Below are positions 30,146 to 64,000 of a stretch of DNA of 64,000 nt, in pieces. How positions within the stretch are numbered: the first letter of the stretch is position 1; each line of letters begins with the position of its first letter. Source of the stretch: an uncultured Enterobacteriaceae bacterium (GTDB lineage Bacteria; Pseudomonadota; Gammaproteobacteria; Burkholderiales; SG8-39); the NCBI GenBank assembly GCA_964576525.1, contig CAZNVH010000015.1:39883-103882 (forward strand), read 5' to 3'. Position numbers and translations under genes: made by a program. The notes below the pieces were generated by a model. The model made no database searches, was not told where the DNA came from, and was given only the letters and a program-made list of their open reading frames with translations.

Positions 30146-31375
30146 TCAGGCGTTCGGGCGTGCTGGCGACGCGCAGGCCGTTGTTGTTGTTGCGGTTAGA
30201 AGTCGTGTTGTTGTTGCGGTTGGCGGAGCGCAGGTTCTGTGGATTGTTGTTCCACGAGCCGCCACGCTGGACGCGCTGCGCACAAAGGGCCAGCCAGGCT
30301 CGCGCGGCGCCTCGTTCGACGGATCGAACCAGCCGCCGCGAAAGATCGCGCGCCTCAGGCGCCAGGTGTCGGCATGTTCGGCATGCGCGATCCAGGCGCC
30401 GATGCGCCGCACAACTTCCTCTCCTGTCACCGTGCCCGCGCGCCAGCGGTCGCGCAGCCCGCGCAGCCGGTTGCGGAAGCGCCTCACATTGTCTTCCGGC
30501 AGCCGGCGGTAGCCGCGCGGCGCGAGCACGTAGCCGAGAAAACGCGCCGGCGCGGCGCTCTCGGCGATGTGCGTCTTTTCGGGGTGAAGCAGGAGCCGCC
30601 TGCCGCAGAGAAAGCGCGCAAGCTCGCCCCGCCACGCTTCGAGGGTATCCACGCCGTCCGCAAACAGGGCGAAGTCGTCGACGTAGCGCACATAGGGGGC
30701 GCGCAGCACTTCCGTGGCGAAGTGATCCAGGCAGTCGAGATACAGGTTGGCGAAGAACTGGCTGGTGAGGTTGCCGATCGGCAGGCCGCGCCTGCGCCCA
30801 AAGGGCGAGAACAAATCATCTCCGGGAAAATAACGCTCGACCGGCTCCTGGCGATTGGCGCCGTCGACGATGGCATCGAGCAGCGCGAGTGTGCGCGCGC
30901 AGGCGATGCGGCGCCGGAACTCCGCCTTCAATATTTCATGATCGACGGCCGGGAAATAGCGGTAGACGTCGCAGCGGAGCACGTGGCGGTGCCGGTCGCG
31001 GTAGCGCTCGTAGCAGGCGACCGCGCGGTGCGAGCCCTTGCCCGTGCGGTTGGCATACGTGTTGGCGATGAAACCGCGCTCGAAGAGCGGCTCGACCACC
31101 GCGCAGAGCGCGTGGTGCACGACGCGGTCGCGAAACGGCGCCGCGGAGATGTTGCGCGGCTTGGGATCGAGCACGCGGAAGGTGACGTAGCCGCCGGGCC
31201 GCCAGCTTCCCTCCAGCAGCCCGCGCTCGAGCTTGAGCAGCTCGCGCTCCAGGTTGGCCATGAACGCTGCGGCGCCGGGCTTCCTGCGCTTGCCCGTGAC
31301 GGCCCGCAGCGCCGCTTCGTGCAGCGCGCGAAAGTTCGCGATGCGCGCAAAGAGGTCTTCAGCCCTGCGCGGCAC
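30146..31375 (-). CDS. DGR reverse transcriptase (Brt-like)
   Basis: Motifs KPRNISAAPFRDRVVHHAL, YANRTGKGSHRAV, LPIGNLTSQFFANLYL, YVRYVDDFALF, FLGYVL and AHAEHADTWRL. The probable start is GTG 31375 (17-nt overlap with avd), with an alternative ATG at 31453. The last 60 or so codons read through the TR in another frame (TTT runs). Confidence 0.88.
   Translation of the reverse strand: MPRRAEDLFARIANFRALHEAALRAVTGKRRKPGAAAFMANLERELLKLERGLLEGSWRPGGYVTFRVLDPKPRNISAAPFRDRVVHHALCAVVEPLFERGFIANTYANRTGKGSHRAVACYERYRDRHRHVLRCDVYRYFPAVDHEILKAEFRRRIACARTLALLDAIVDGANRQEPVERYFPGDDLFSPFGRRRGLPIGNLTSQFFANLYLDCLDHFATEVLRAPYVRYVDDFALFADGVDTLEAWRGELARFLCGRRLLLHPEKTHIAESAAPARFLGYVLAPRGYRRLPEDNVRRFRNRLRGLRDRWRAGTVTGEEVVRRIGAWIAHAEHADTWRLRRAIFRGGWFDPSNEAPREPGWPFVRSASSVAARGTTIHRTCAPPTATTTRLLTATTTTACASPARPNA
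30163..30285 (-). repeat. DGR template repeat (TR), 123 nt, AAC-rich
   Basis: Coding-strand sequence is TTGTGCGCAGCGCGTCCAGCGTGGCGGCTCGTGGAACAACAATCCACAGAACCTGCGCTCCGCCAACCGCAACAACAACACGACTTCTAACCGCAACAACAACAACGGCCTGCGCGTCGCCAG. It aligns to 31794..31922 with differences only at TR adenines plus one 6-nt indel. Confidence 0.9.
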
Positions 31376-31721
31376 GGTTCGCCTTCTTCCAGCCGCCGAC
31401 CAGGCGCCCCGTCTCGTCGAGGTTGCGCGCCGCGTGCTCGTAGCGGCGCGCATCGAGGAGCCTCAGGTCGTGCGCGAGGCGAAACAGGATGCGCAGCTTG
31501 TCCAGGCCTAGGTTCGCCGCGTCGAGCGCCTGCTCGCGCCGGCGGTCGTAGGTGGCCTCGATCAGGCGCTCGAGCACGTCGAGCGCGCCCGCCTGGATGC
31601 GGTCGCCGAGCAGGAACTTCTGCGAGCGCGGGAACTTCTCCACCGTCGGGATGAGCCACAACAGAAACCGGTACAGCGCTTCAAGAGCCGGGCCGGTTTT
31701 GCGCGCTGAGCTGTCCGCCAT
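31359..31721 (-). CDS. avd: DGR accessory variability determinant (Avd, four-helix-bundle protein)
   Basis: 120 aa with LEALYRFLLWLIPTVEKFPRSQKFLLGDRIQAGALDVLERLIEA, typical of the four-helix-bundle/Avd family. It sits between the target and the RT. Confidence 0.8.
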   Translation of the reverse strand: MADSSARKTGPALEALYRFLLWLIPTVEKFPRSQKFLLGDRIQAGALDVLERLIEATYDRRREQALDAANLGLDKLRILFRLAHDLRLLDARRYEHAARNLDETGRLVGGWKKANRAAQG

Positions 31722-31729
31722 TCAAATTT

Positions 31730-31753
31730 CCGCCGCGCCTCACGGCGCGGCGG
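31730..31753. other. Perfect 10-bp GC stem / 4-nt loop hairpin between the VR-bearing gene and avd
   Basis: CCGCCGCGCC (31730-31739), loop TCAC, GGCGCGGCGG (31744-31753). The loop on the coding strand is GTGA. It lies 40 nt downstream of the VR 3' end. Confidence 0.7.
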
Positions 31754-31783
31754 CAAGAGTCAAGGAGTCAAAGATGCAAGAGG

Positions 31784-33640
31784 CTAGTTTGTCCTGGCGA
31801 CGCGCAGGCCGAAGTCGAAGCCGCGGTAAGAAGCCGAGTAGCTGAAGTAGCCGCGGACGGCGGAGCGCAGGGACCGCGGATTGATGAACCACGAGCCGCC
31901 ACGCTGGACGCGCCGCGCACAATTGCTGGAAGTCCACGCGCTGCCGTCGCCCGGCGCCCCGGCATAGTTCGAATTCCAGCAATCCTCGACCCATTCCCAG
32001 ACGTTGCCATGCACGTCGTACAGCCCGAAAGCGTTCGGCGAATATTTTCCAACCTCCACCGTCTTGCCTTCTTTCGTCCCGGTCGGGCTCCCCGCGTAAG
32101 AGACCGAGGCATCATAGTTTGCCTGCTGCGGCGAGATGCTGTTGCCCCAGGAGAATGCGGTCGTCGTGCCGGCGCGCGCGACGTATTCCCATTCCGCCTC
32201 GGTGAGCAGCCGGTAGCTCTTGCCCGTCTTGCGCGAGAGCCAGGCGACGTACTGCTTCGCGTCATCCCACGAAACGTGGATGACCGGCCGCCGGCCGCGG
32301 CCGGAGTCGCTCGGGTTATGGCTGCAGCCGTTTTCGCGCACGCAGGCGTCCCATTCGTCGAAGGTGACTTCGTATTTGCCCGCGGCGAAGGAACGGGAGA
32401 TTGTTACCTGGTGCTGCGGGCCTTCGTCGCCGCCTCGCCCAGGCTCGGACTGGGGCGATCCCATCATGAAGCTGCCGGGCGGGATCATGATCATCTCGGG
32501 GCAGACATCGCAGTCGCGGAAGCTCGTGCCGGGCCGGGCCGAAGGAGGCGAGACCACGCTCGGCGGCGCGACAACGACCACCTGCTGCGGCGGCGGCGCG
32601 GAAATCGTGGGCGCGACAACGGTCACCTGCGGTCGCGGGGCGGAAACCGCGGGCGCGGCGGCTGGGGCCGGCGCGGGGCTCAACGCCTTCAGGCGGGCGC
32701 GGGCGACGCCGGCAAAGCGGCCCTTCGGGTACTGCTCGAGATAGGCGTTGAGCTCATCGGCGTTGCGGCTGTTCCTGACGCTCTCCCACAGCGCGAGCTC
32801 GAGCGCCACGGGATCGGTGGCGGGGGTTGCTGCCGCGGGAGTTGGCGTGGTCTGGGGAGCAGCAGCGACCTGGGTCCCAGGCCGGAAGTAGAAGTCGCCA
32901 ACCAGAGAGGTCGATTCCCAGGGCGTCTGCTTGCCGCCGGTTTCCCTGACCACGCCGGCGCGGGTGCGCTGGAAGACCTTGAGGAGATCGGTATCAGACT
33001 GATTCAGGCTCGCGAGCAGATGCTTGGTGTACGTGCCGTTGCGTCCCGCACCGTCCGCCGCCACTGAGCCGGGCGCGGTGGCGAAGGCGATGACGCTGCC
33101 AGTAGCGGCGTTCATCTGCGCGAGCCCGCGCGACGCCGAACGGAAGCTGCGCGCGAAGGGATTGTTGCGGCAGGCATCGAGGACGATGATGCTGACCTTG
33201 ACCTGCGCCTCTTCCATGGTGCGCAGCGCGAGGTTCGCATTGATCGCCAGGTCCTCGGCCTCGGCTTCGCTCTGGATGTCGGCCCCGACAGGGACGAGGT
33301 AGTTCTCCCCTTTCACCTGCACGCCGTGGCCCGCGAAAAAGAAGAGGCCGACCTGAGCGCGTCGCAGCTCGGCGCCGAACTCGCGAATCGCTTGCCGCAT
33401 GTCGCGGCTGCCGGCATTGCGCTTGAGGATAACCTTGAAGCCGAACCGCTCGAGAGCCTTGGCGATGTCCGCCGCGTCATTCGCCGGGTTGGCGAGCGGC
33501 GAGTCCTTGTAGGCCGAGTTGCCGATCACGAGCGCCACGCGCTGCTCGCCCGCCTGGGCGGGAGCGACATTGAGGTTGCGCTGCGCGGCGGCGGTGGCCG
33601 GCACAGCGGAAATCAGGACCGCGAGAAGAATCCGCCACAT
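31784..33640 (-). CDS. DGR target protein: signal peptide + caspase-like peptidase C14 domain + Pro/Ala-rich linker + FGE-sulfatase (C-type-lectin fold) domain carrying the VR
   Basis: 618 aa from MWRILLAVLISAVPATAAAQ (ATG 33640 preceded by GGGAGGG; the listed start at 33658 is TTG). Caspase His/Cys dyad contexts are FFFAGHGVQ and IVLDACRNNPF. The FGE-sulfatase region is MIMIPPGSFMMGSP...VSWDDAKQYVAWLS...RLLTEAEWEYVARAG...GLYDVHGNVWEWVEDCW...RVQRGGSW. Confidence 0.85.
   Translation of the reverse strand: MWRILLAVLISAVPATAAAQRNLNVAPAQAGEQRVALVIGNSAYKDSPLANPANDAADIAKALERFGFKVILKRNAGSRDMRQAIREFGAELRRAQVGLFFFAGHGVQVKGENYLVPVGADIQSEAEAEDLAINANLALRTMEEAQVKVSIIVLDACRNNPFARSFRSASRGLAQMNAATGSVIAFATAPGSVAADGAGRNGTYTKHLLASLNQSDTDLLKVFQRTRAGVVRETGGKQTPWESTSLVGDFYFRPGTQVAAAPQTTPTPAAATPATDPVALELALWESVRNSRNADELNAYLEQYPKGRFAGVARARLKALSPAPAPAAAPAVSAPRPQVTVVAPTISAPPPQQVVVVAPPSVVSPPSARPGTSFRDCDVCPEMIMIPPGSFMMGSPQSEPGRGGDEGPQHQVTISRSFAAGKYEVTFDEWDACVRENGCSHNPSDSGRGRRPVIHVSWDDAKQYVAWLSRKTGKSYRLLTEAEWEYVARAGTTTAFSWGNSISPQQANYDASVSYAGSPTGTKEGKTVEVGKYSPNAFGLYDVHGNVWEWVEDCWNSNYAGAPGDGSAWTSSNCARRVQRGGSWFINPRSLRSAVRGYFSYSASYRGFDFGLRVARTN
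31794..31922 (-). repeat. DGR variable repeat (VR), 129 nt, at the 3' end of the target gene
   Basis: Coding strand is TTGTGCGCGGCGCGTCCAGCGTGGCGGCTCGTGGTTCATCAATCCGCGGTCCCTGCGCTCCGCCGTCCGCGGCTACTTCAGCTACTCGGCTTCTTACCGCGGCTTCGACTTCGGCCTGCGCGTCGCCAG. It ends 7 nt before the TAG stop. Confidence 0.9.
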
Positions 33641-33751
33641 GAACCCTCCCTGGCTCAAGGCGAACTAGGCGAAGGTATTGTAGGCCTACGGGAGCAAGCA
33701 GCGGCGGTGCTGCTGCACCGACCTATAGCGGAATATCACCTGCCAGAGAAC

Positions 33752-55932: not shown

Positions 55933-56886
55933 TTACTCGGGCTGGATGCCGGCTTCCTTGACGATCCGGCCCCACTTGTCGACCTCGATGCGGATCACCT
56001 CGGCGAATGCCTCCGGCGTGCCGCCCTGGATCTCGATGCCGGCGCCCATCAGGCGCGCGCGCACGTCCTCGAGCTTGAGTGCGGCGTTCATCGCGGCGTT
56101 CAGCTTCGCCACCGCGTCTTTCGGCATCCCCGCCGGCCCGAGGATCCCGCCCCAGGTGCTGGCGTCGTAGCCGGGAAGACTTTCGGCGATCGTCGGCAGC
56201 TCGGGCATTGCGCTCGAGCGCTTGGCGGTGGTGACCGCGATCCCGCGCACCGTGCCCGCTTTCACGTGGCCGCGGATCGCGGTGATGGTGTCGAAGATCA
56301 TCGCGGTGCGGCCGGCCAGCAAGTCGGGGTGCGCAGCGGAGCTGCCCTTGTAGGGGACGTGCTGCATCTTGGTCCCGGTCATGCTCATGAACAGCTCGGC
56401 CGCCATGTGCAGCGAGCTGCCCGGCCCGCTCGAGGCGTAGACCGCCTTGCTTGGATTCGCCTTGATCCAGGCCACGAGTTCGGGAACGGTTTTCGCCTGA
56501 ACCGACGGGTGTACCGCGAGGAGCAGCGGCACGACGTGCGTGTAGACCACCGGCTCGAAATCCTTGATCGGGTCGAAGGGCATCTGCTTGAACAGATGCT
56601 TGTTGGTCGCGTGGCTGGAAGCGACGATGACCAGCGTGTAGCCGTCGGGCGGGCTCTTGGCGACGAAATCGGTGCCGAGGTTGTTGGAGGCGCCCGGCTT
56701 GTTCTCGACCACCACCGGCTGCCCGAGCGCCGGGGTCAGCTTTTCGGCGAGGCTGCGCGCGATCAGGTCGATCGCGCCGCCCGGCGTCGCCGGGACCACG
56801 ATCTTGATCGAGCGGCTTGGCCAGGTTTGCGCGCTTGCCTGTTGCAGGCCGAAAAGCACGACTGCGATTGCTATCAACACCCTCAT
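55933..56886 (-). CDS. Tripartite tricarboxylate transporter substrate-binding protein (Bug/TctC family)
   Basis: 317 aa with WPSRSIKIVVPATPGGAIDL, VVVENKPGASNN and HVPYKGSSAA. Confidence 0.85.
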   Translation of the reverse strand: MRVLIAIAVVLFGLQQASAQTWPSRSIKIVVPATPGGAIDLIARSLAEKLTPALGQPVVVENKPGASNNLGTDFVAKSPPDGYTLVIVASSHATNKHLFKQMPFDPIKDFEPVVYTHVVPLLLAVHPSVQAKTVPELVAWIKANPSKAVYASSGPGSSLHMAAELFMSMTGTKMQHVPYKGSSAAHPDLLAGRTAMIFDTITAIRGHVKAGTVRGIAVTTAKRSSAMPELPTIAESLPGYDASTWGGILGPAGMPKDAVAKLNAAMNAALKLEDVRARLMGAGIEIQGGTPEAFAEVIRIEVDKWGRIVKEAGIQPE

Positions 56887-57082
56887 TTCGTTCCCCTTGA
56901 GTTGTTTTCCAGTGTCCGAGGCGAATTCTGCGCTAAGTGCATGATCTTCTTGCTTGACAGACCTTTACCCCCGGTCCTTAATGATCCTGCTAAGGTATTG
57001 AAGTAGCTACTGCTTCTACAAACGTACCCGGCTGCAGATCGTAGCCGGGACCAACAACAAACAGCAGGACCGCGGGGGAAAG

Positions 57083-58492
57083 ATGAGTGGCGGGTTGGCC
57101 ACAATTTCGGGCGGCCGGCGACCAGCCGGCTCCGTCATCGCGGCGGGGATCGTGCTCGAGTTGCACGCGGCCGTGCTCTCGCAAGAGGGCCTGGCGCAGT
57201 CTGCCACCGCCCTCGCCACCGAACTGGCGAAGGCGCTGCGCTGCGACCGGGTTACCGTGGGGTGGCTCGAGCGCGGCAGCTGCCGCGTCATCGCGACCTC
57301 GCACAGCGTCGAGTTCGACGCGCGCCACAAGCTGTTCGAGAAGATCGGCGCGGCCATGGACGAGGCGATCGAGCAGTCGGCCACGATCGTGCTGCCGGCG
57401 CCGGAGCCTTCCGGCCCGTTCGTAACGCTCGCCCACGGCGAAGTGCTCGCCTTGCTGGGCGGCAGTGTCTGCACCGTTCCCCTGGTCGATGCCGGACGCC
57501 CGGTCGGCGTCATCACGCTGGAGCGTGCTGGCAGCGCGTTCGGCCTGACGGAAGCGGCGTTTTGCGAGGACGTAGCCTGCCTCGCCGGACCGCTGCTCGA
57601 GATGAAGCGCAGGGGCCAGCGATCGCCGGCGCAGGTCGCGCTCGACGCGTGGCGCGAGTCGGCCTCCCGGCTCACCGGCCGGGGCCGCGCGGGCAAATGG
57701 GTGGGCCTGGGGATCGCCGCGATCGCGGCTGTCGCCCTGCTGGTTCCGGTTTCCCATCACGTAGGCGCGCCGGCCCGCCTCGAGGGCTCCATCCAGCGCA
57801 TCGTAGCGGCGCCGGTCGACGGCTTTCTCGAGCAGGTCAACGTGCGTCCCGGCGACCGGGTCCGCGCCGGCGACGTCATCGCCGAGCTGTCCCTGCGCGA
57901 CCTGCAGGCGGAGCGCGCCAAGCGCCAAAGCGAAGTCACGCAGCAGGAGAACCTCTACGGGGCGGCGATGGCCCGCGCCGACCGGACGCAATTCGTCATC
58001 CACCACGCGAAGGCAGCCGAGGCGCTCGCGCAGCTGGCGCTGGTCGAGCACCAGATGCAGCGCGCGCGCATCCGCGCGCCGTTCGACGGCGTGGTGATCA
58101 AGGGCGATCTGACGCAGTCGCTGGGCGCCCCGGTGCAGCGCGGCGAAGTCCTGATGACGCTGGCGCCGGACGAGCGCTTCCGCCTGATCGTGGAAGTCGA
58201 CGAGCGCGACCTGGCGCAGGTGCAGCCCGGATCGCGCGGCCGGCTGGCGCTGGCGGCGGCGCCGGGAGAGACGTTCGAGTTCCGCGTGAGCCGCATCCTG
58301 CCGGTGGCGGTGGCGGCCGACGGCCGGAATTTCTTCGAAGTGGAAGCGGTGGTCGAAACGGCGAGCGCTACGCTGCGCCCGGGGCTGCGCGGCGTCGCCA
58401 AGATCTCCGCCGGCGAGCGTTCGTTGGTTTGGATCGCGACGCATCGCGCCGTGGAATGGGTGCGCCTCGCGATCTGGTCGCTCGGCGCCTAG
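57083..58492 (+). CDS. GAF-domain / HlyD-family membrane-fusion (periplasmic adaptor) protein
   Basis: 469 aa. The N-terminal 170 or so aa are GAF-like (CDRVTVGWLERGSCRVIATSHS...VCTVPLVDAGRPVGVITLER). Then come one TM helix (WVGLGIAAIAAVALLV), a biotinyl-lipoyl-like hairpin (VAAPVDGFLEQVNVRPGDRVRAGDVIAEL ... IRAPFDGVVI) and a coiled coil. Confidence 0.75.
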   Translation: MSGGLATISGGRRPAGSVIAAGIVLELHAAVLSQEGLAQSATALATELAKALRCDRVTVGWLERGSCRVIATSHSVEFDARHKLFEKIGAAMDEAIEQSATIVLPAPEPSGPFVTLAHGEVLALLGGSVCTVPLVDAGRPVGVITLERAGSAFGLTEAAFCEDVACLAGPLLEMKRRGQRSPAQVALDAWRESASRLTGRGRAGKWVGLGIAAIAAVALLVPVSHHVGAPARLEGSIQRIVAAPVDGFLEQVNVRPGDRVRAGDVIAELSLRDLQAERAKRQSEVTQQENLYGAAMARADRTQFVIHHAKAAEALAQLALVEHQMQRARIRAPFDGVVIKGDLTQSLGAPVQRGEVLMTLAPDERFRLIVEVDERDLAQVQPGSRGRLALAAAPGETFEFRVSRILPVAVAADGRNFFEVEAVVETASATLRPGLRGVAKISAGERSLVWIATHRAVEWVRLAIWSLGA

Positions 58493-60631
58493 GTGGCCGA
58501 GTCTCTCTTCAGCCCGTTCTGGTACCGCGTGAGCGAGCTGCATCCGCGGCTGCGGGCCGGGGTGAAAGCGCAGCGGCAGATCTACCGCGGCGAGACCTGG
58601 TATCTGCTGGTCGACGGCGCGAGCGGGCGGCAGCAGCGCATCAACCGCTCGGCCTACGAGCTGATCGGGCGCTTCGACGGCCGCGCCTCGGTCAACCGGG
58701 TGTGGACGCTGCTGCTGGAAAAATTCGGCGACGACGCCCCGACGCAGGACGAAGTGGTGCGCATCCTGTCGCGGCTGAGCGAGAGCGAGGTGGTGCAGTT
58801 TGAGTCCGCACCGGACATCGCGGGGCTGTTCCGCCGGCGCGCGGAGCGTTCCCGCCGCCGCGCGTGGGTGAACCCGCTCGCCTTCTCCATGCCGCTGTTC
58901 GACCCTTCGCGCCTGCTCGATCGCCTCGAGCCGGCGCTGCGCCGGCTGCTGCATCCCCTCGCGTTCGCGTTCTGGGTGGCTGCGGTGCTGCTGGCGGCGG
59001 CTGTGGCCGCCGCGCACTGGGGCGCGCTGCAAGCCCATGCGACGAAATACATGGCGACGGCGTACTACCTCACGCTCGCCTGGATCTGCTACCCGCTCAT
59101 CAAGGGCCTGCACGAGCTCGCGCACGGCATCGCCGTGCGGCGATGGGGCGGTGAAGTTCACGAAATGGGCGTGACCCTGTTTTTCTTCACCCCCGCGCCT
59201 TATGTCGACGCCTCGGCGGCGAACGCATTTCGCGACCGCAGGCAGCGGGCGGCGGTCAGCGCGGCGGGGATCGTGGTCGAGCTCGGCCTCGCCGCAGTGG
59301 CGCTGTTCCTCTGGCTCGCCATCGAGCCCGGGCTGCTGAGCGACCTCGCGTTCGTGACGCTGTTCCTGTGCGCCGCCTCGTCGTTCCTTTTCAACGCCAA
59401 CCCGCTGCTGCGCTTCGACGGCTATCACGTGCTGTGCGACCTGCTCGAGCTGCCGAACCTCGCGATCCGCAGCCGGGCCTACTGGATGCATCTTGCGCTG
59501 CGGCTGCTCGGCGGCGCGGCGCAGGCGTCGGCGCCGGTGATCACGCGCGGCGAGCGCAAGTGGCTGCTGCTCTACCTGCCGGCGTCGCTCGCCTATCGCC
59601 TTGCCCTGGGCCTTGGCCTGGTCCTCTGGCTCGGAGCCAAGTCGCAATGGCTGGGCTGGCTGGCTGCGGCTCTGTTCCTGGCTTACATGGTGGCCCTCCC
59701 GGCCTGGAGCGCGGTTCGCTCGCTCCTCGGTTCGCTGCCGCCGGGACGTCCGCGACGGCGTGCGGCGCTGGTCCTCGCGCCGGCAAGCCTCGGCGTGCTC
59801 GCGTTGCTCCCCATCGTGCCGTTTCCCAGCATGCTGGTCGTGCAGGGAGTGGTGTGGCCCCCCGAGCAGGCGCAGGTCAGGGCGGAAACCGAAGGCTTTG
59901 TCCTGAAGGTTCTTGCGCGCGACGGCGACCTCGTCCAGCCCGGGACGCCGCTGGTGGAGCTGGCCGAGCCGACGCTGCGCGCCGAGCACGAAGCGCTGCG
60001 CTGGCGAGTGCAAGGGCTGCAGGCGCAGCAATACCGCCTGCTGCTGAGCGACCCGGCGCAGGCGAAGAACGCGATCGAGGAGCTGGGCCGCGCGCAGACC
60101 GAGCTGGAGCGCGTCGAGGAGCGCGTCGGTCACCTGACCGTGCGCAGCAAGGCCACCGGCCGGCTGATCCTGCCGCACAGCGAGGACCTCCCCGGGTCGT
60201 TTGCGCAGAAAGGCAAGACGCTGGGCTACGTTCTGACCTCGGCGCCCATGGCCGTGCGCGCCGTCGTTCCGAACGAGAGCGCCCCGCGGATCCGCGGGGC
60301 GAACCGGGGCGTCGAAGTCTTCCTGCCGGGGCGGGAATCGCCGACGCCGGCGCGGCTGGAGCGCGAGGTGCCGGCGGCCGGGAACGTGCTCCCCAGCGCG
60401 GCGCTGGGCGAGCGCGGCGGCGGCCAGCATGCCACCGATCCCGCCGACAAGGACGGCACACGCACGGTGGGGCCGGTATTCGTTTTCGACGTCGTGCTGG
60501 AAGGCGAGGCGTCGCAGAGCGTCGGGCAGCGCGCCTGGGTGCGCTTCGAGCTCGAGCACGAGCCGCTGGCCGCGCAGTGGTACCGGCACCTGCGCCAGCT
60601 CCTGCTCAGGCATTTCAATCCCGCGGCATGA
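58493..60631 (+). CDS. Site-2-protease (M50)-like polytopic metalloprotease fused to a C-terminal HlyD-like adaptor region
   Basis: 712 aa with a GTG start abutting the upstream TAG. HELAH is at 59111-59125 and NANPLLRFDG (S2P NxxPxxxxDG motif) at 59393-59422. It has multiple TM helices, and the C-terminal half has a lipoyl-like hairpin plus coiled coil (VRAETEGFVLKVLARDGDLVQPGTPLVEL..LQAQQYRLL). Confidence 0.75.
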   Translation: MAESLFSPFWYRVSELHPRLRAGVKAQRQIYRGETWYLLVDGASGRQQRINRSAYELIGRFDGRASVNRVWTLLLEKFGDDAPTQDEVVRILSRLSESEVVQFESAPDIAGLFRRRAERSRRRAWVNPLAFSMPLFDPSRLLDRLEPALRRLLHPLAFAFWVAAVLLAAAVAAAHWGALQAHATKYMATAYYLTLAWICYPLIKGLHELAHGIAVRRWGGEVHEMGVTLFFFTPAPYVDASAANAFRDRRQRAAVSAAGIVVELGLAAVALFLWLAIEPGLLSDLAFVTLFLCAASSFLFNANPLLRFDGYHVLCDLLELPNLAIRSRAYWMHLALRLLGGAAQASAPVITRGERKWLLLYLPASLAYRLALGLGLVLWLGAKSQWLGWLAAALFLAYMVALPAWSAVRSLLGSLPPGRPRRRAALVLAPASLGVLALLPIVPFPSMLVVQGVVWPPEQAQVRAETEGFVLKVLARDGDLVQPGTPLVELAEPTLRAEHEALRWRVQGLQAQQYRLLLSDPAQAKNAIEELGRAQTELERVEERVGHLTVRSKATGRLILPHSEDLPGSFAQKGKTLGYVLTSAPMAVRAVVPNESAPRIRGANRGVEVFLPGRESPTPARLEREVPAAGNVLPSAALGERGGGQHATDPADKDGTRTVGPVFVFDVVLEGEASQSVGQRAWVRFELEHEPLAAQWYRHLRQLLLRHFNPAA

Positions 60632-62589
60632 ACCTGCGACCGGCCGACCTTCCCATCCCCGGCGTGCTCTGGGGTCGCTATCCCGAGCGGCGCTGGAACG
60701 GCCCGGGGTGGCTCGCGGGCTGGGGAGCGATGTTTGCCGGTCGCGCGCCGCGCGACGCTGCTTTCCTGCGCGCGGTCGAAGCGCTGCAGCCTGCGATGCT
60801 GCAGCTGTCCTTGGAGCAATGCGCCGCCGAAGCGCACAGGCTGCGCCAGCAGCTCGCGCGCCGCGGAATGGCGCAGGATCTGGTGGCGGCGGTATTCGCC
60901 CTGTTCTCCGAAATCTCGCGCCGCCAGACCGGCCGGCGCCCGTACGGCACGCAGATGGTCGCGGCGCGCGCCATGCTCGGCCGTCGCCTGGTGGAGATGG
61001 CGACCGGCGAAGGCAAGACGCTGGCCGCCGCGCTGGCCGCAGCGACCGCGGCGCTCGCGCGGATCCCCGTCCACGTCATCACCGCCAACGAGTATCTCGC
61101 CCGGCGCGATGCCGACGCCCTGCGGCCGCTCTTCGGCGCGCTCGGGCTGCAGGTCGGCGTGGTGACGCATGCGCTCGATCGGGAGGCGCGCCGGGCCGCT
61201 TACCGCTGCGACGTGACCTATTGCACGGCGAAGGAGCTGGTCTTCGATTACCTGCGCGACCGCCTCCTGCGTCCCGACGTCGACGGAGATTTGCGTAGCC
61301 GGGCCTATCGGCTGGCGACCCGGGACGCCGGCGGGGGCACGTTGCTGCGCGGGCTGTGCATGGCGATCGTCGACGAAGCCGACAGCGTGCTGATCGACGA
61401 GGCGAGCGTGCCGTTCGTCCTGTCACGCGCGGGGGAGAGCCGCGGCAACCGCGAGCATTGGGCGCACGCCCTCGAGCTCGCGCGCGGCTTCGCGTCCCGC
61501 GAAGACTTCACCGTCGATCCGGAATCGAAGGCGGTGGAGCTCACGGCTGACGGGCGCGCCAGGGCCGAGTCCCAGCCGGCGCATGCCGATCCGCTGTGGC
61601 GCGTCCGGCGCTACCGGGAAGAGGCCTTGTGCCTGGCGCTGGCCGCGATCCATCTCTATCACCGCGACCGGCACTACCTGGTGCGCGACGGCACCGTGCA
61701 GATCATCGACGATACCAGCGGGCGGGTGGCCGCCGGCCGCGCCTGGTCCCGCGGCCTGCACCAGCTGATCGAGCTCAAGGAAGGCTGCCGGCCGAGCGCC
61801 GAGTTCACTCCTGCCGCGCAGATCACCTACCAGCGCTTCTTTGCGCGCTACCTCCATCTCTGCGGCATGAGCGGCACGCTGCTCGAAGGGCGCTCGGAGC
61901 TGCGCTCGGTCTACGGTGCGCCCGTGGTCCGGATCCCGCTGCGCAAGCCCTCGCGCCGGGCGGTCCTGCCGACGCGCGCGTTCGGCACCCATGAGGCGCG
62001 CTGGCGATACGTCGTGCGGCGCACGAGTGAACTTCACGCGCGGGGCGGCGCGGTGCTCATCGGCACCGACTCGGTGGCCGATTCGCAGTCTCTCTCCCAG
62101 AGCCTGGGCGCCGCGGGCATCGCGCACGTCGTGCTCAACGCGCGGCAGGACCGGCACGAGGCGCACGTCATCGCCACGGCCGGCCAGCCCGGCCGCGTCA
62201 CCGTGGCCACCAGCATGGCGGGCCGGGGCACCGACATCGAGCTCGCGGATGACGTTGCCCGGGACGGCGGGCTGCACGTGATGCTTTGCCAGGCGAATGC
62301 CTCGCGACGGGTGGACCACCAGTTCACCGGCCGCTGCGCGCGGCGCGCCGAGCCGGGAAGCTGCGAGACGCTGCTGTCGCTCGAGTCGGCGCCGGTCCTC
62401 GCGGTCCTGCCGGCGTGGATCAGCCGCTGGGCCGCTCGCGCGGAGGAAATACGCCCGCGCTGGGCCGGGATTACGCTCGCGCGCGCTGCTTTGTGGTGGG
62501 AAGAGCGCAGACGCCGCTGGCAGCGCGCCCAGCTGCGCCTGCAGGACGAGGCCCTCGAGCGCCAACCGATGCTAGGCTCAGGCAGATGA
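60628..62589 (+). CDS. SecA-like DEAD-motor ATPase, truncated (no C-terminal scaffold/wing/zinc domain)
   Basis: 653 aa from MNLRPADLPIPG. Walker A is MATGEGKT (60997-61020), followed by IVDEADSVLIDEASVPF (DEAD at 61372-61383), QITYQRFFARYLHLCGMSGT, ATSMAGRGTDIEL and GGLHVM..ASRRVDHQFTGRCARRAEPGS. These are colinear with SecA NBD1/PPXD/NBD2. ATGA overlaps on both sides. Confidence 0.8.
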   Translation: MNLRPADLPIPGVLWGRYPERRWNGPGWLAGWGAMFAGRAPRDAAFLRAVEALQPAMLQLSLEQCAAEAHRLRQQLARRGMAQDLVAAVFALFSEISRRQTGRRPYGTQMVAARAMLGRRLVEMATGEGKTLAAALAAATAALARIPVHVITANEYLARRDADALRPLFGALGLQVGVVTHALDREARRAAYRCDVTYCTAKELVFDYLRDRLLRPDVDGDLRSRAYRLATRDAGGGTLLRGLCMAIVDEADSVLIDEASVPFVLSRAGESRGNREHWAHALELARGFASREDFTVDPESKAVELTADGRARAESQPAHADPLWRVRRYREEALCLALAAIHLYHRDRHYLVRDGTVQIIDDTSGRVAAGRAWSRGLHQLIELKEGCRPSAEFTPAAQITYQRFFARYLHLCGMSGTLLEGRSELRSVYGAPVVRIPLRKPSRRAVLPTRAFGTHEARWRYVVRRTSELHARGGAVLIGTDSVADSQSLSQSLGAAGIAHVVLNARQDRHEAHVIATAGQPGRVTVATSMAGRGTDIELADDVARDGGLHVMLCQANASRRVDHQFTGRCARRAEPGSCETLLSLESAPVLAVLPAWISRWAARAEEIRPRWAGITLARAALWWEERRRRWQRAQLRLQDEALERQPMLGSGR

Positions 62590-63431
62590 ACCGGCCCGCC
62601 ATGATGAAGACCTGCGTGGCAGCGCTCCTCGGCGCCGCGAGCTGTTGGGACGCGGGCGCGCAGCCGCTCGGGTGCCTGATCGAGCCGTTTCGCGTGACCG
62701 AGGTCGGCAGCCCGGTCATCGGCGTGCTCGAGTCGGTCAAGGTCGAGCGCGGCGATCGCATCGCCAAAGGGGCCGTCATCGCCGTGCTGCGCGCCGACGT
62801 GGAGCGGGCGGCGGTCGGGGTCGCGTCCACCCGGGCAAAGGTGGTCGCGGAGGTCCAGGCGGCGCAGGCGAACCACGAGCTGGCACGCCAGAAGCTGACG
62901 CGCGCCCGGGAGCTCAGGCGCCAGAACTTCATTTCCGAGCAGGCGCTGGAGCAGGCGCGCGCGGAGGCCGACGTGGCCGAACAGAGGCTGAAGCAGACGC
63001 AGGAGCAGCGCGGCATCTGGGCGCGCGAGCTGCAGCTCGCCGAAGCGCAGCTCGAGCTGCGCACCATCCGCAGCCCGGCCGACGGCATCGTTGTGGAGCG
63101 CTACATGTCGGGCGGCGAGCGGGTGGAGGAAAAGCCGATCGTGCGCATCGCGACGATCGATCCGCTGCGGGTGGAGATCGTCGTTCCCGCGGCGCAGTAC
63201 GGCACGATTTCGCTCGGCGCCGTGCTCACCGTCACCCCCGATCTGCCGCACGCGAAGCCCCTGCGGGCGAAAGTCGTCCTGGTCGATCCGGTGGTCGACG
63301 GCCCGAGCAATACGTTCCGGGTCCGGCTCGAGCTGCCGAACCCGAACTACGAGCTGCCGGCCGGCGTACGCTGCAAAATCGGCCTCGGTTTCGACGCCAA
63401 GGTCGCCGCCGAGCGCAACCTCAAGCGATGA
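62586..63431 (+). CDS. HlyD/RND-type periplasmic adaptor, probable lipoprotein
   Basis: 281 aa from MNRPAMMKTCVAALLGAASC (lipobox-like), with a lipoyl hairpin (VGSPVIGVLESVKVERGDRIAKGAVIAVL ... IRSPADGIVV), a coiled coil and a beta-barrel. Confidence 0.8.
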   Translation: MNRPAMMKTCVAALLGAASCWDAGAQPLGCLIEPFRVTEVGSPVIGVLESVKVERGDRIAKGAVIAVLRADVERAAVGVASTRAKVVAEVQAAQANHELARQKLTRARELRRQNFISEQALEQARAEADVAEQRLKQTQEQRGIWARELQLAEAQLELRTIRSPADGIVVERYMSGGERVEEKPIVRIATIDPLRVEIVVPAAQYGTISLGAVLTVTPDLPHAKPLRAKVVLVDPVVDGPSNTFRVRLELPNPNYELPAGVRCKIGLGFDAKVAAERNLKR

Positions 63432-64000
63432 TGCGCCGGCGCCCGATCGTAGAAGCGCTCGAGCCGCGGCTGCTGTACTCGGCCGACAGTGCGGCGCTGG
63501 CCGCGGCGGTCCTGGGGCCGCCCGCGACGGAGCAGCGCGTCATCGACGGCGATGCCGAGTTCGCGCCCCAGACCGAGCAGGCGGTGCAGAACGCCTCGCG
63601 CGAAGTCGTGTTCATCGATGGCCGCACACCCGACTACGAGCTTCTGGTCCAGGACATCGCCGCGCAGAGCGGACGGCAGGTCGACGTCGTCATGCTCGAT
63701 ACCACGCGTGACGGGCTGGAGCAGATCACCGAAGCGCTCGCGGGCCGGGAGAACGTCGCCGCGCTGCACATCATCGCCCACGGCGACGAGGGCGTTGTGC
63801 AGCTGGGCAACGCCCTGGTCACGGCCGACAGCCTTCAGAACAATCAATACCGGATCGAAGCCTGGAGCAAGGCGCTCACCGCCGACGCCGACATCCTCCT
63901 CTACGGCTGCGACGTCGCGGCGAGCGTGCAGGGACAACTGTTCGTCGACGCGCTCGCGCGCCTTACCGGGGCCGACGTCTCCGCCTCGGACGATGCGACC
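63428..64000 (+). CDS. N-terminus of a LEPR-XLL / DUF4347 domain protein (probable giant secreted adhesin-like protein); runs off right edge
   Basis: Not in the ORF track because it has no stop in-window. Hand translation from ATG 63428 gives MMRRRPIVEALEPRLLYSADSAALAAA...REVVFIDGRTPDYELLVQDI...VVMLDTTRDGLEQITEALAGRENVAALHIIAHGDEGVVQLG...ILLYGCDVAAS..GQLFVDALARLTGADVSASDDAT, which fits the DUF4347 pattern. The listed ORF 63091..63711 is in the wrong frame. Confidence 0.8.
   Translation, partial: MMRRRPIVEALEPRLLYSADSAALAAAVLGPPATEQRVIDGDAEFAPQTEQAVQNASREVVFIDGRTPDYELLVQDIAAQSGRQVDVVMLDTTRDGLEQITEALAGRENVAALHIIAHGDEGVVQLGNALVTADSLQNNQYRIEAWSKALTADADILLYGCDVAASVQGQLFVDALARLTGADVSASDDAT

What the first reader, a model, noticed from the sequence alone, without database searches (positions are those of the whole stretch)
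60628..62589. Motor-only SecA paralogue
The 653-aa protein keeps the SecA ATPase signature blocks in order: MATGEGKT, VDEADSVLIDEA, QITYQRFFARY..MSGT, MAGRGTDI and SRRVDHQFTGRCARRAEPGS. It ends about 80 residues after the last block. It therefore lacks most of the helical scaffold, the helical wing and the C-terminal zinc/SecB-binding tail of housekeeping SecA (about 900 aa). The N-terminal 100 or so residues are also not SecA-like. Its position inside an adaptor/protease operon argues for a specialised role rather than general Sec translocation.
Basis: partly seen in the sequence, partly recalled or inferred. Interest (0 to 1): 0.65.

Follow-up and report, generated by a model that had tools for sequence, protein, structure and literature searches.

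The report
Short SecA-like motor beside giant-protein gene
This is a real, conserved, shortened relative of the protein-export motor SecA that sits in an operon with three periplasmic adaptor proteins and a membrane protease, most likely to export the giant surface protein encoded next to it; the gene family and its neighbourhood were already described by comparative genomics in 2015, and no experimental test turned up in the literature searched.

Summary
The 653-aa ORF at 60628-62589 (+) is real. It has SecA's NBD1, preprotein cross-linking domain (PPXD) and NBD2, then one long scaffold helix. It lacks the helical wing, two-helix finger and C-terminal tail. The PPXD is kept, so it is not strictly motor-only. 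Only about 45 N-terminal residues, not 100, are un-SecA-like, and they carry a family-invariant motif.

[quoted passage not shown] They reported the same locus of GAF-HlyD, Peptidase_M50-HlyD, SecA_DEAD and HlyD genes, and proposed a type-I-secretion-like role.

Three points are added here.
- The M50-like protein has an N-terminal PqqD-like peptide-recognition domain, invariant site-2-protease motifs and a C-terminal MexA-like adaptor.
- All operon genes are translationally coupled to a downstream giant gene. That gene starts with the NCBIfam "LEPR-XLL" motif and DUF4347, and has no Sec signal peptide.
- LEPR-type giant genes occur in 21 of 41 module loci and 0 of 42 canonical-SecA/SecA2 loci.

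Best reading: the ATPase of a Sec-independent, tripartite exporter for giant adhesin-like proteins. I could not check whether the source genome also has a canonical secA.

The parts
57083..58492 (+). Gene 1: cytoplasmic GAF domain, one transmembrane helix (residues 206-224), then a periplasmic HlyD/RND-type membrane-fusion (adaptor) domain; 469 aa
   Evidence: Pfam GAF 41-165, HlyD_D23, HlyD_3 and Biotin_lipoyl_2; NCBIfam RND_mfp 97.6 bits, above its cut-off of 94.9; hydropathy; conserved upstream of the module in other loci
58493..60631 (+). Gene 2: 712-aa fusion of a PqqD-like peptide-recognition domain (residues ~16-102, nt 58538-58798), a ~7-helix site-2-protease-like membrane domain with HExxH (H207 E208 H211, nt 59111-59125) and NxNPxxxxD (N301-D309, nt 59393-59419), and a C-terminal MexA/MacA-like adaptor with an alpha-hairpin (residues 443-707, nt 59819-60613)
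   Evidence: Pfam and NCBIfam daptide_HExxH E 4e-51; motifs invariant in 58 representatives; PqqD in 39/58, Peptidase_M50 in 55/58 and HlyD_3 in 54/58 members; family profile hits PqqD structure 3g2b at E 4e-6; AF2 pLDDT 88.6; Foldseek top hits are MexA, AcrA and MacA; 3398 representatives at E<=1e-30
60628..62589 (+). Gene 3, the finding: 653-aa short SecA-like ATPase (NBD1 + PPXD + NBD2 + one scaffold helix); no transmembrane segment
60628..60759 (+). Family-specific N-terminal peptide (residues 1-44) with invariant P11 G12 G16 Y18 P19 E20; it takes the place of SecA's N-terminal segment
   Evidence: Alignment A1; residues 1-38 mostly low-confidence in the AF2 model; outside all SecA alignments
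61453..61773 (+). Preprotein cross-linking domain (PPXD, residues 276-382), retained
   Evidence: Pfam SecA_PP_bind E 2e-23, profile positions 4-110 of 110
62458..62562 (+). Single long C-terminal helix (residues 611-645), read as the first helix of the SecA helical scaffold; nothing follows it (no wing domain, no two-helix finger, no Zn/SecB-binding tail)
   Evidence: AF2 secondary structure; Foldseek alignments to SecA span 610-625 columns of the 653-residue query. The equivalence to the scaffold helix was not checked residue by residue
62586..63431 (+). Gene 4: 281-aa HlyD/RND-type adaptor with a short N-terminal signal and a lipobox-like LLGAASC; its start overlaps the SecA-like stop (ATGA)
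   Evidence: Pfam HlyD_D23 and HlyD_3; NCBIfam RND_mfp 128.8 bits, above cut-off; junction sequence; gene call in L001
63428..64000 (+). Gene 5 (5' end only; runs off the window): giant repeat protein. LEPR-XLL motif at residues 7-26 (nt 63446-63505: IVEALEPRLLYSAD...), DUF4347 from residue 60 (nt 63605 onward). No hydrophobic signal peptide. Its start overlaps the gene 4 stop (ATGA)
   Evidence: Pfam DUF4347 E 5e-43; NCBIfam NF012209 LEPR-8K 22.6 bits, above its cut-off of 17; continues for more than 692 aa with a cadherin-like repeat in L001; junction; hydropathy

Best explanation
The protein is the cytoplasmic ATPase of a Sec-independent, type-I-secretion-like envelope exporter that handles giant adhesin-like proteins, here the LEPR-XLL/DUF4347 protein encoded immediately downstream.

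Proposed mechanism:
1. The giant protein has no Sec signal peptide. It carries a short N-terminal LEPR-XLL leader.
2. The cytoplasmic PqqD-like recognition domain of the 712-aa membrane protein binds that leader. Its site-2-protease-like HExxH core may cleave the leader off. This would parallel the C39-peptidase ABC exporters and RiPP leader peptidases such as YydH and the daptide protease.
3. The SecA-like motor keeps the ATPase core and the PPXD polypeptide clamp but has lost the SecY-directed two-helix finger and wing. It grips the unfolded chain and feeds it, using ATP, into the membrane platform formed by gene 2.
4. The three adaptor domains (genes 1, 2 and 4) build the periplasmic conduit to a TolC-like outer-membrane factor encoded elsewhere.
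5. The GAF domain of gene 1 gates or regulates the system.

Shown here: the domain content, the conservation of catalytic residues, the operon coupling and the conserved synteny.

Inferred: substrate identity, leader recognition and cleavage, which protein forms the pore, what the motor docks to, and the outer-membrane partner.
For: ATPase and clamp are intact. Walker A K130, DEAD D249/E250, motif V R533-D536 and motif VI G568/R569/R572 are invariant in 45 family members. The PPXD is a full-length Pfam match. The AF2 model fits substrate-engaged SecA best (6itc and 5eul, TM 0.78, rmsd 4.1-4.2 Å).

The SecY-directed parts are missing. There is no SecA_SW match and only one helix after NBD2. The protein has no transmembrane segment.

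The partners look like a tripartite exporter. There are three adaptor-fold proteins. Gene 2's C-terminus matches MexA, AcrA and MacA and includes the alpha-hairpin. Gene 2 has about 7 transmembrane helices and invariant site-2-protease motifs. Its PqqD-like domain is supported by Pfam in 39 of 58 members and by PDB entry 3g2b at E 4e-6.

The five genes are coupled. Genes 1 and 2 abut, and the next three junctions are ATGA overlaps.

The module order is conserved in Beta-, Gamma- and Alphaproteobacteria, Planctomycetota and Verrucomicrobiota.

The cargo link has statistical support. LEPR-motif large ORFs occur in 21 of 41 module loci and in 0 of 42 canonical-SecA/SecA2 loci (Fisher p = 1e-8). 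With the regex fixed in advance the counts are 12 and 0 (p = 8e-5). Four further module loci have adjacent giant ORFs whose N-termini lie off the locus: RTX plus a matrixin-like domain, Big_9/cadherin/dockerin, and RHS.

Two more distant DUF4347 homologues fetched independently also have the module directly upstream (L086, L089), as do two close relatives (L084, L085).

Literature. Kamneva et al. 2015 proposed the T1SS-like ATPase role from the same synteny and saw OEP/TolC-type genes in some loci. Giant Omnitrophota and actinobacterial proteins carry wing-less SecA_DEAD plus PPXD domains, which their authors suggest help export the giant protein.
Against: There is no experimental evidence anywhere for export, ATPase activity, leader binding or leader cleavage.

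No ABC transporter or TolC/OEP gene was seen in the operon or among the 20 other window ORFs scanned. The outer-membrane partner is therefore assumed.

No site-2-protease-family protein is known to conduct a polypeptide across a membrane.

Adjacency is not universal. About 16 of 41 module loci show no giant neighbour within the flanks. Of six other DUF4347 loci sampled, none has the module adjacent, although two carry a clear LEPR motif and two a weaker variant. Genome-level co-occurrence was not tested.

The LEPR HMM was seeded from these same loci, so it is partly circular. It is controlled by the pre-fixed regex and by NCBIfam's independent model.

In Methylobacterium extorquens AM1 the SecA-like, M50 and HlyD genes were barely expressed in exponential phase.
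Confidence: 0.55

Rival explanations
1. It is an accessory SecA2-type motor that still delivers selected substrates, such as the giant protein, to the ordinary SecYEG channel. The adaptor and protease proteins act only later, in the periplasm.
For: The nearest relatives outside the module clade in the scan include actinobacterial homologues of 742-787 aa. Kamneva et al. place the family next to actinobacterial SecA2. Mycobacterial SecA2, which lacks the wing domain, is understood from the literature to work with SecYEG (established knowledge). The PPXD clamp is kept.
Against: All SecA2 equivalog models score far below cut-off, for example 400.8 against 725 and 367.9 against 930. The two-helix finger and the rest of the scaffold that face SecY are absent, not only the wing. 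The cargo N-terminus has no hydrophobic signal peptide. The gene is translationally coupled to membrane and adaptor partners, not to secY2 or asp genes.
Confidence: 0.12
2. It is not a translocation motor. It is a cytoplasmic unfoldase or holdase, or a regulator, that presents a substrate to the membrane metalloprotease, as in regulated intramembrane proteolysis or leader processing. Export itself is driven by another system.
For: Gene 2 has an intact site-2-protease active site and a peptide-recognition domain. The GAF domain suggests signal sensing. E. coli SecA truncated to N68 keeps ATPase activity but not coupled translocation (established knowledge; the 5k9t structure is among the fold hits).
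Against: Three separate adaptor-fold domains with alpha-hairpins make little sense without a trans-envelope conduit. The conserved neighbours are extracellular-type giant proteins.
Confidence: 0.15
3. The module exports or matures a small ribosomally made peptide (RiPP-like) or a non-protein substrate, and the neighbouring giant gene is incidental.
For: The PqqD-like domain and the HExxH protease resemble RiPP machinery: daptide_HExxH at E 4e-51 and YydH/LiaK at E 3e-7, both below their cut-offs. Half of the sampled LEPR/DUF4347 genes lie away from the module.
Against: No precursor-sized ORF or modifying enzyme lies in the tightly packed operon; genes abut or overlap by 4 nt. A polypeptide-clamp motor of the SecA type is not needed for a small peptide. 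The giant gene is translationally coupled to gene 4. The enrichment of LEPR giant genes at module loci has p = 1e-8.
Confidence: 0.07
4. It is a truncated or decaying secA pseudogene, or an assembly artefact.
For: It is about 250 residues shorter than housekeeping SecA.
Against: There are thousands of homologues. The top 120 are almost all 600-676 aa with the same architecture. Catalytic residues are invariant. The same ORF occurs on an independent contig (L001). Module-linked copies in five bacterial lineages (three proteobacterial classes and two other phyla) have matching lengths.
Confidence: 0.01

Closest known systems
Secondary SecA_DEAD domain proteins and their conserved locus (Kamneva, Poudel & Ward, PLoS One 2015, PMC4452313)
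   Same: The protein architecture is the same: SecA_DEAD with the wing-scaffold domain lost or reduced to a fragment. The four-gene neighbourhood is the same: GAF+HlyD, Peptidase_M50(+HlyD), SecA_DEAD, HlyD/Biotin_lipoyl. The phyletic spread is the same: Proteobacteria, Planctomycetes and Verrucomicrobia. So is the proposed T1SS-like role with the M50 protein as the possible inner-membrane component.
   Different: Nothing essential differs; this is a betaproteobacterial member. The paper names no substrate and mentions neither PqqD, DUF4347 nor adhesins. It states that the biological role is "completely unknown". The cargo link, the peptide-recognition domain and the invariant protease motifs are additions made here.
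Housekeeping SecA (TIGR00963 / NF009538)
   Same: NBD1, PPXD and NBD2 share ~33% identity with B. subtilis SecA over residues 68-587. The Walker A, DEAD, motif V and motif VI residues are kept.
   Different: It has no wing domain, no two-helix finger, no C-terminal linker or Zn finger, and a different N-terminus. It scores 453 bits against a cut-off of 814. Its neighbours are adaptors and a protease rather than the usual housekeeping context.
E. coli SecA-N68 laboratory truncation (PDB 5k9t)
   Same: The extent is nearly the same: DEAD motor plus PPXD without the C-terminal regulatory third. It is among the fold hits at E 4e-45.
   Different: N68 is an engineered fragment. This is a natural, conserved protein with an added scaffold helix and its own N-terminal motif.
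Peptidase-containing ABC exporters of type I secretion (C39-domain PCATs; HlyB/HlyD/TolC)
   Same: The logic is the same: leader recognition and (in PCATs) cleavage at the inner-membrane component, an ATPase, membrane-fusion adaptors, and very large RTX or cadherin-type cargo without Sec signals.
   Different: There is no ABC transporter. The ATPase derives from SecA, the protease is site-2-protease-like rather than C39, there are three different adaptor proteins, and the putative signal is N-terminal (LEPR-XLL) rather than a C-terminal T1SS signal.
SecA_DEAD + PPXD domains embedded in giant Omnitrophota and actinobacterial proteins (West-Roberts et al., bioRxiv 2023, 10.1101/2023.11.21.568195)
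   Same: These are wing- and scaffold-less SecA motors associated with giant proteins, and their authors suggest they export the giant protein itself.
   Different: There the motor is fused into the giant protein and lies beside a type-II-secretion-like locus. Here it is a free-standing 653-aa protein in an adaptor/protease operon.

Membership tests
Canonical SecA | DEAD-type motor (NBD1 + NBD2) with Walker A/B and the arginine motif | tested here: met
   Pfam SecA_DEAD E 4e-82 and P-loop_SecA E 1e-36; K130, D249/E250, R533-D536 and R569/R572 invariant
Canonical SecA | Preprotein cross-linking domain | tested here: met
   SecA_PP_bind at residues 276-382, profile positions 4-110 of 110
Canonical SecA | Helical scaffold + helical wing (SecA_SW), including the two-helix finger | tested here: not met
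   No SecA_SW hit; PDB alignments stop at residue ~590; the model has a single helix at 611-645 and then ends
Canonical SecA | Scores above the NCBIfam equivalog cut-off | tested here: not met
   453.4 bits against 814 (NF009538) and 452 against 800 (TIGR00963)
Canonical SecA | Works with SecYEG and is essential | not testable with these tools
   Needs biochemistry or genetics
SecA2 (accessory Sec systems) | Scores above the SecA2 model cut-offs | tested here: not met
   TIGR04221 400.8 against 725; TIGR03714 367.9 against 930; TIGR04397 421.9 against 1085; NF012136 315.7 against 1100
SecA2 (accessory Sec systems) | Neighbourhood with secY2/asp genes, or SecA2-only usage in Gram-positive bacteria or mycobacteria | tested here: not met
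   The neighbours are GAF-HlyD, PqqD-M50-HlyD, HlyD and a giant gene
Secondary SecA_DEAD domain proteins (Kamneva 2015) | SecA_DEAD present, SecA_SW absent or a fragment | tested here: met
   definition
Secondary SecA_DEAD domain proteins (Kamneva 2015) | Conserved locus with GAF-, Peptidase_M50- and HlyD-domain proteins | tested here: met
   description
Secondary SecA_DEAD domain proteins (Kamneva 2015) | Groups phylogenetically apart from canonical SecA | tested here: met
   In a neighbour-joining tree of 74 sequences, one split separates all 37 module-linked proteins from canonical SecA and SecA2. This is a distance tree without support values
Secondary SecA_DEAD domain proteins (Kamneva 2015) | Is an additional copy beside a canonical secA in the same genome | not testable with these tools
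   No canonical secA among the 20 other window ORFs scanned.
Type I secretion system (ABC-MFP-OMF) | Membrane fusion (periplasmic adaptor) protein | tested here: met
   Three adaptor-domain proteins
Type I secretion system (ABC-MFP-OMF) | ABC transporter as the inner-membrane energiser | tested here: not met
   None in the operon; Kamneva et al. found none either
Type I secretion system (ABC-MFP-OMF) | TolC-type outer-membrane factor | tested here: inconclusive
   Not seen in the operon or in 20 other window ORFs. Reported in some loci by Kamneva et al.. The window ends inside the giant gene
RiPP leader-peptidase systems (PqqD-type recognition element + HExxH membrane protease) | PqqD-like recognition domain and an intact HExxH metalloprotease | tested here: met
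RiPP leader-peptidase systems (PqqD-type recognition element + HExxH membrane protease) | Small precursor peptide and modifying enzymes in the cluster; score above the family cut-off | tested here: not met
   daptide_HExxH 174.5 bits against 300 and LiaK 30.4 against 225; no room for further genes in the operon
LEPR-XLL domain proteins (NCBIfam NF012209), for the downstream gene | N-terminal LEPR-XLL motif scoring above cut-off | tested here: met
   22.6 bits against a cut-off of 17; 28.9 bits in L003

The most novel reading that the evidence does not exclude
The five-gene unit is a distinct, still unnamed class of Gram-negative protein secretion system. A SecA-derived motor replaces the ABC transporter. 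A site-2-protease-like membrane protein with a RiPP-type recognition domain reads, and perhaps removes, an N-terminal LEPR-XLL leader. Three different adaptors bridge to an outer-membrane channel. This would explain how a widespread class of giant adhesin-like proteins without Sec signals, about 8,000 aa to judge from the NCBIfam name "LEPR-8K", leaves the cell. The machinery was sketched in 2015. I did not find the cargo link or the leader-recognition idea in the literature I could search.
Probability: 0.35. Interest if true: 0.85.

Novelty: new member of a known kind. Interest (0 to 1): 0.5.

Why it matters
If the proposed mechanism is right, SecA's motor has been re-used outside the Sec pathway to push giant proteins through a TolC-type conduit. 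That would be a new energising principle for tripartite exporters, and it would answer how LEPR-XLL/DUF4347 giant proteins are secreted.

The marker protein (gene 2) has about 3,400 representatives at 50% identity clustering (E<=1e-30). The module was seen here in three proteobacterial classes and two other phyla, and Kamneva et al. add Nitrospirae and Chlorobi. The system is therefore common in soil and water bacteria.

The work here turns a decade-old synteny observation into a testable model with a named candidate substrate, a candidate signal, a candidate receptor domain and point mutants to make. As a genome-scan finding, however, it re-discovers a published family.

Tried and rejected
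- **Canonical secA in the same genome.** I could not test this. The genome-collection scan returned only the 80 best loci, none from the source organism (best species representative 52% identical), and it is capped at one. Cluster look-up gave no accession for the source protein.
- **Metagenome scan with the DUF4347 N-terminus.** It returned only two close relatives, too few for a reciprocal statistic. I therefore sampled eight homologues by exact look-up. Adjacency was mixed, with the module upstream in 2 of 8.
- **PDB sequence search with the LEPR/DUF4347 region.** Nothing significant came back, so the idea that DUF4347 is a caspase-like His/Cys module stays untested.
- **Promoter and terminator scan of 56500-64000.** No promoter-like site was found, and terminator-like sites were at background level. 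This is uninformative for a 70% GC genome.
- **Midpoint rooting of the distance tree.** It put the root inside the long-branched module group. I use only the unrooted split.
- **Literature.** Searches for experimental follow-up used SecA-like/HlyD/M50, DUF4347, LEPR-XLL, the M. extorquens locus tags and "secondary SecA". They found only the 2015 paper, one later paper that cites it, and passing mentions.
- **Pseudogene or truncation artefact.** Rejected on conservation.

Full report
**Observation.** It ends 75 residues after the last block. Its ATG overlaps the stop codon of the upstream gene as ATGA.

Pfam assigns SecA_DEAD to residues 45-425 (E 4e-82), SecA_PP_bind to 276-382 (E 2e-23) and the NBD2 model P-loop_SecA from residue 450 (E 1e-36). 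It assigns no SecA_SW. NCBIfam SecA and SecA2 models match only their first ~550 of ~790 positions. They score 316-453 bits against cut-offs of 725-1493. Solved SecA and SecA2 sequences align to residues 47/68-587 and no further.

An AlphaFold2 model built on 45 family members has pLDDT 82.9 and pTM 0.78. It shows NBD1, PPXD and NBD2 followed by one long helix at 611-645 and then the end of the protein. Foldseek returns only SecA and SecA2 structures at the top. The best superposition is on substrate-engaged SecA-SecY complexes (6itc and 5eul, TM 0.78). The engineered E. coli truncation SecA-N68 is also among the hits.

The PPXD is kept, so the protein is not strictly motor-only. One scaffold helix is kept. 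Only about 45 N-terminal residues, not about 100, lie outside the SecA alignment. Residues 1-38 are mostly low-confidence in the model, yet they carry a family-invariant motif (P11 G12 G16 Y18 P19 E20; consensus LPxPGxLWGxYPERR).

**It is a conserved family, not a truncation.** The protein search gave more than 7,800 hits. The best 120 are 528-676 aa, nearly all 600-676, with the same three Pfam domains. Their source names are inconsistent: "preprotein translocase subunit SecA", "DEAD/DEAH box helicase", "prepilin peptidase" and "hypothetical". Walker A K130, DEAD D249/E250, motif V R533-D536 and motif VI R569/R572 are invariant.

Across 80 loci from a scan of species-representative genomes, SecA homologues next to the module are 618-706 aa. 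Homologues without it are almost all 742-1162 aa, which covers canonical SecA and Gram-positive or actinobacterial SecA2. Four shorter ones have no detected module: L027, L038, L054 and L055. In a neighbour-joining tree, one split separates all 37 module-linked proteins from the rest. That tree is a distance tree without support values, and its rooting is unreliable.

**Surroundings.** The gene is third in a tightly coupled operon.
- *Gene 1 (57083-58492).* A cytoplasmic GAF domain, one transmembrane helix and a periplasmic HlyD/RND-type adaptor.
- *Gene 2 (58493-60631, 712 aa).* It abuts gene 1. It combines an N-terminal PqqD-like domain, a site-2-protease-like membrane core and a C-terminal adaptor.
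- *Gene 4 (62586-63431).* A third adaptor with a lipoprotein-like signal. It starts in an ATGA overlap with the SecA-like stop codon.
- *Gene 5.* It starts at 63428 in another ATGA overlap and runs off the window.

Upstream lie unrelated inositol-catabolism-like and Bug/TctC-type genes on either strand. The rest of the window is ordinary chromosome.

**Gene 2 in detail.** In 58 representatives of its family, H207, E208, H211, N301, N303, P304 and D309 are invariant. These are the HExxH and NxxPxxxxDG motifs of site-2 proteases. Scanned individually, 55 of 58 members hit Peptidase_M50, 54 of 58 hit HlyD_3 and 39 of 58 hit PqqD. A family profile hits the PqqD structures 3g2b (E 4e-6, nearly full length) and 5sxy (E 5e-4). 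It also hits MacA, MexA, EmrA and HlyD adaptors.

The AF2 model (pLDDT 88.6) shows three strands and three helices at the N-terminus, which is the arrangement expected of a PqqD-type recognition element. About seven transmembrane helices follow, then an adaptor with an alpha-hairpin at 493-546. Foldseek's top hits are MexA, AcrA and MacA. The family is large and constant in length. It has 3,398 representatives at E<=1e-30 among 1.84 billion clustered proteins, and nearly all of the best 150 are 706-730 aa.

**The downstream gene.** Its product begins MMRRRPIVEALEPRLLYSAD. It has no hydrophobic signal peptide. It matches NCBIfam NF012209 ("LEPR-8K", LEPR-XLL domain) above cut-off and Pfam DUF4347 from residue 60. 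On an independent contig from the same organism it continues for more than 692 aa with a cadherin-like repeat before the contig ends.

**Conservation of the neighbourhood.** The order GAF-adaptor, PqqD/M50/adaptor, SecA-like, adaptor recurs in these groups:
- Betaproteobacteria;
- Gammaproteobacteria (Nevskia, Frateuria);
- Alphaproteobacteria (Sphingobium, Mesorhizobium, Asaia);
- Planctomycetota;
- Verrucomicrobiota.

A LEPR-motif HMM finds large ORFs, usually directly after gene 4, in 21 of 41 module loci. It finds none in 42 loci that carry canonical SecA or SecA2 (Fisher p = 1e-8). A regex fixed before building the HMM gives 12 against 0 (p = 8e-5).

Four more module loci have adjacent giant ORFs whose N-termini lie outside the fetched DNA. 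These carry RTX repeats plus a matrixin-like domain, Big_9/cadherin/He_PIG/PKD/dockerin repeats, or RHS plus cadherin repeats. All are extracellular-type architectures.

The reverse association is weaker. Ten DUF4347 loci were fetched independently. Four have the module directly upstream, and two of those four are close relatives of the window. Six do not. Of those six, two carry a clear LEPR motif, two carry a weaker variant, one has an ordinary Sec signal peptide instead, and one shows no motif. Cargo genes, if that is what they are, can evidently lie elsewhere in the genome. Genome-wide co-occurrence remains to be tested.

**Mechanism.** The best-supported reading is that the SecA-like protein is the ATPase of a Sec-independent, type-I-secretion-like exporter for giant adhesin-like proteins.

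Shown: an intact ATPase and polypeptide clamp; loss of the SecY-directed finger and wing; three adaptor-fold partners; a polytopic partner with an intact metalloprotease site and a peptide-recognition domain; translational coupling to a giant gene that lacks a signal peptide; and conserved synteny.

Inferred:
- the recognition domain binds the LEPR-XLL leader;
- the protease removes that leader;
- the motor feeds the unfolded chain into a platform formed by gene 2;
- the adaptors reach a TolC-type channel encoded elsewhere;
- the invariant N-terminal peptide of the motor is its docking element;
- the GAF domain regulates the system.

I put this reading at 0.55. The rivals are listed with their tests in the report sections:
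- a SecA2-like motor that still uses SecYEG (0.12);
- a cytoplasmic unfoldase or presenter for the protease, not a translocation motor (0.15);
- export of a small RiPP-like product (0.07);
- a pseudogene (0.01).

**Comparison with what is known.** The family and its locus were described by Kamneva, Poudel and Ward in 2015. They called the proteins "secondary SecA_DEAD domain proteins" and noted that the wing-scaffold domain was lost. [quoted passage not shown] They reported the same locus of GAF, Peptidase_M50, SecA_DEAD and HlyD/Biotin_lipoyl genes and occasional OEP genes. They placed the family as sister to actinobacterial SecA2. They also proposed a T1SS-like machine with the M50 protein as a possible pore.

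The paper names no substrate and does not mention PqqD, DUF4347 or adhesins. It calls the biological role "completely unknown". I found no experimental follow-up in the searchable literature.

A 2023 preprint reports wing-less SecA_DEAD plus PPXD domains fused into giant Omnitrophota and actinobacterial proteins. Its authors suggest these domains help export the giant proteins. That is an independent parallel.

The window's gene fails the membership tests for canonical SecA and for SecA2. It meets the three tests that could be run for the Kamneva family. It resembles a type I system in adaptors and cargo type but lacks the defining ABC transporter.

**Verdict.** I classify it as a new member of a known kind.

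Its remaining interest is that the function is unproven and potentially important. The cargo, leader and recognition-domain model assembled here makes that function directly testable.

The main gap is that I could not verify a canonical secA in the source genome.

Noticed in passing
window 30146-33658 (- strand): Likely diversity-generating retroelement. A reverse transcriptase ORF (RVT_1, 30146-31453) lies next to a caspase (Peptidase_C14) protein with a C-terminal FGE-sulfatase/C-type-lectin-fold domain (31784-33658). A 126-nt imperfect repeat pairs 30160-30285 (template-like) with 31791-31922 (at the 3' end of the target gene). In the 70-nt block all 10 mismatches fall on T of the + strand, which is A on the coding strand. 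That is the adenine-specific signature.
   Followed up: partly
window 63605-64000; L001 6973-7476: The DUF4347 domain has a His-Gly ... Gly-Cys pair (ALHIIAHGDEG ... ILLYGCDVAA) that recalls the catalytic dyad of caspase/CHAT-fold proteases. It might be a self-processing module just after the LEPR-XLL leader. A PDB sequence search found nothing, and no structure prediction was run.
   Followed up: partly
window 60628-60759 (SecA-like residues 1-44): Residues 1-38 are mostly low-confidence in the model, but the consensus LPxPGxLWGxYPERR has six invariant residues across 45 family members. It takes the place of SecA's N-terminal segment and may be a docking peptide for a partner.
   Followed up: partly
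P0008: A 78%-identical homologue is named "prepilin peptidase" in NCBI (MDP2242162.1). Others are named SecA, DEAD/DEAH helicase or hypothetical. Public annotation of this family is inconsistent and sometimes wrong.
   Followed up: no
L002/L003 3084-5201 and 1897-2637; L086 14276-18527; L093 2986-4527: GGDEF/EAL, PAS-GGDEF or Crp-type cyclic-nucleotide regulator genes lie near the module or the giant genes in several loci. Together with the GAF domain of gene 1, this hints at second-messenger control, as in Lap-type adhesin systems.
   Followed up: no
L090 9001-9522: One DUF4347 protein has an ordinary Sec-type signal peptide (MLALSAVLVGLMGSPLGGSAALASARPAQA) instead of the LEPR-XLL motif, and no module nearby. 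DUF4347 and the LEPR leader therefore appear separable.
   Followed up: partly
window 1-56000: The remainder of the window is ordinary chromosomal content: obg, proB, proS, pheS/pheT, thrS, ppk, ppx, relA/spoT, a PilS-like histidine kinase, a TgpA-type transglutaminase, a lytic transglycosylase, TctC/Bug receptors and a TRAP DctM subunit. No canonical secA, ABC exporter or TolC-type gene was seen among the 20 ORFs scanned.
   Followed up: partly
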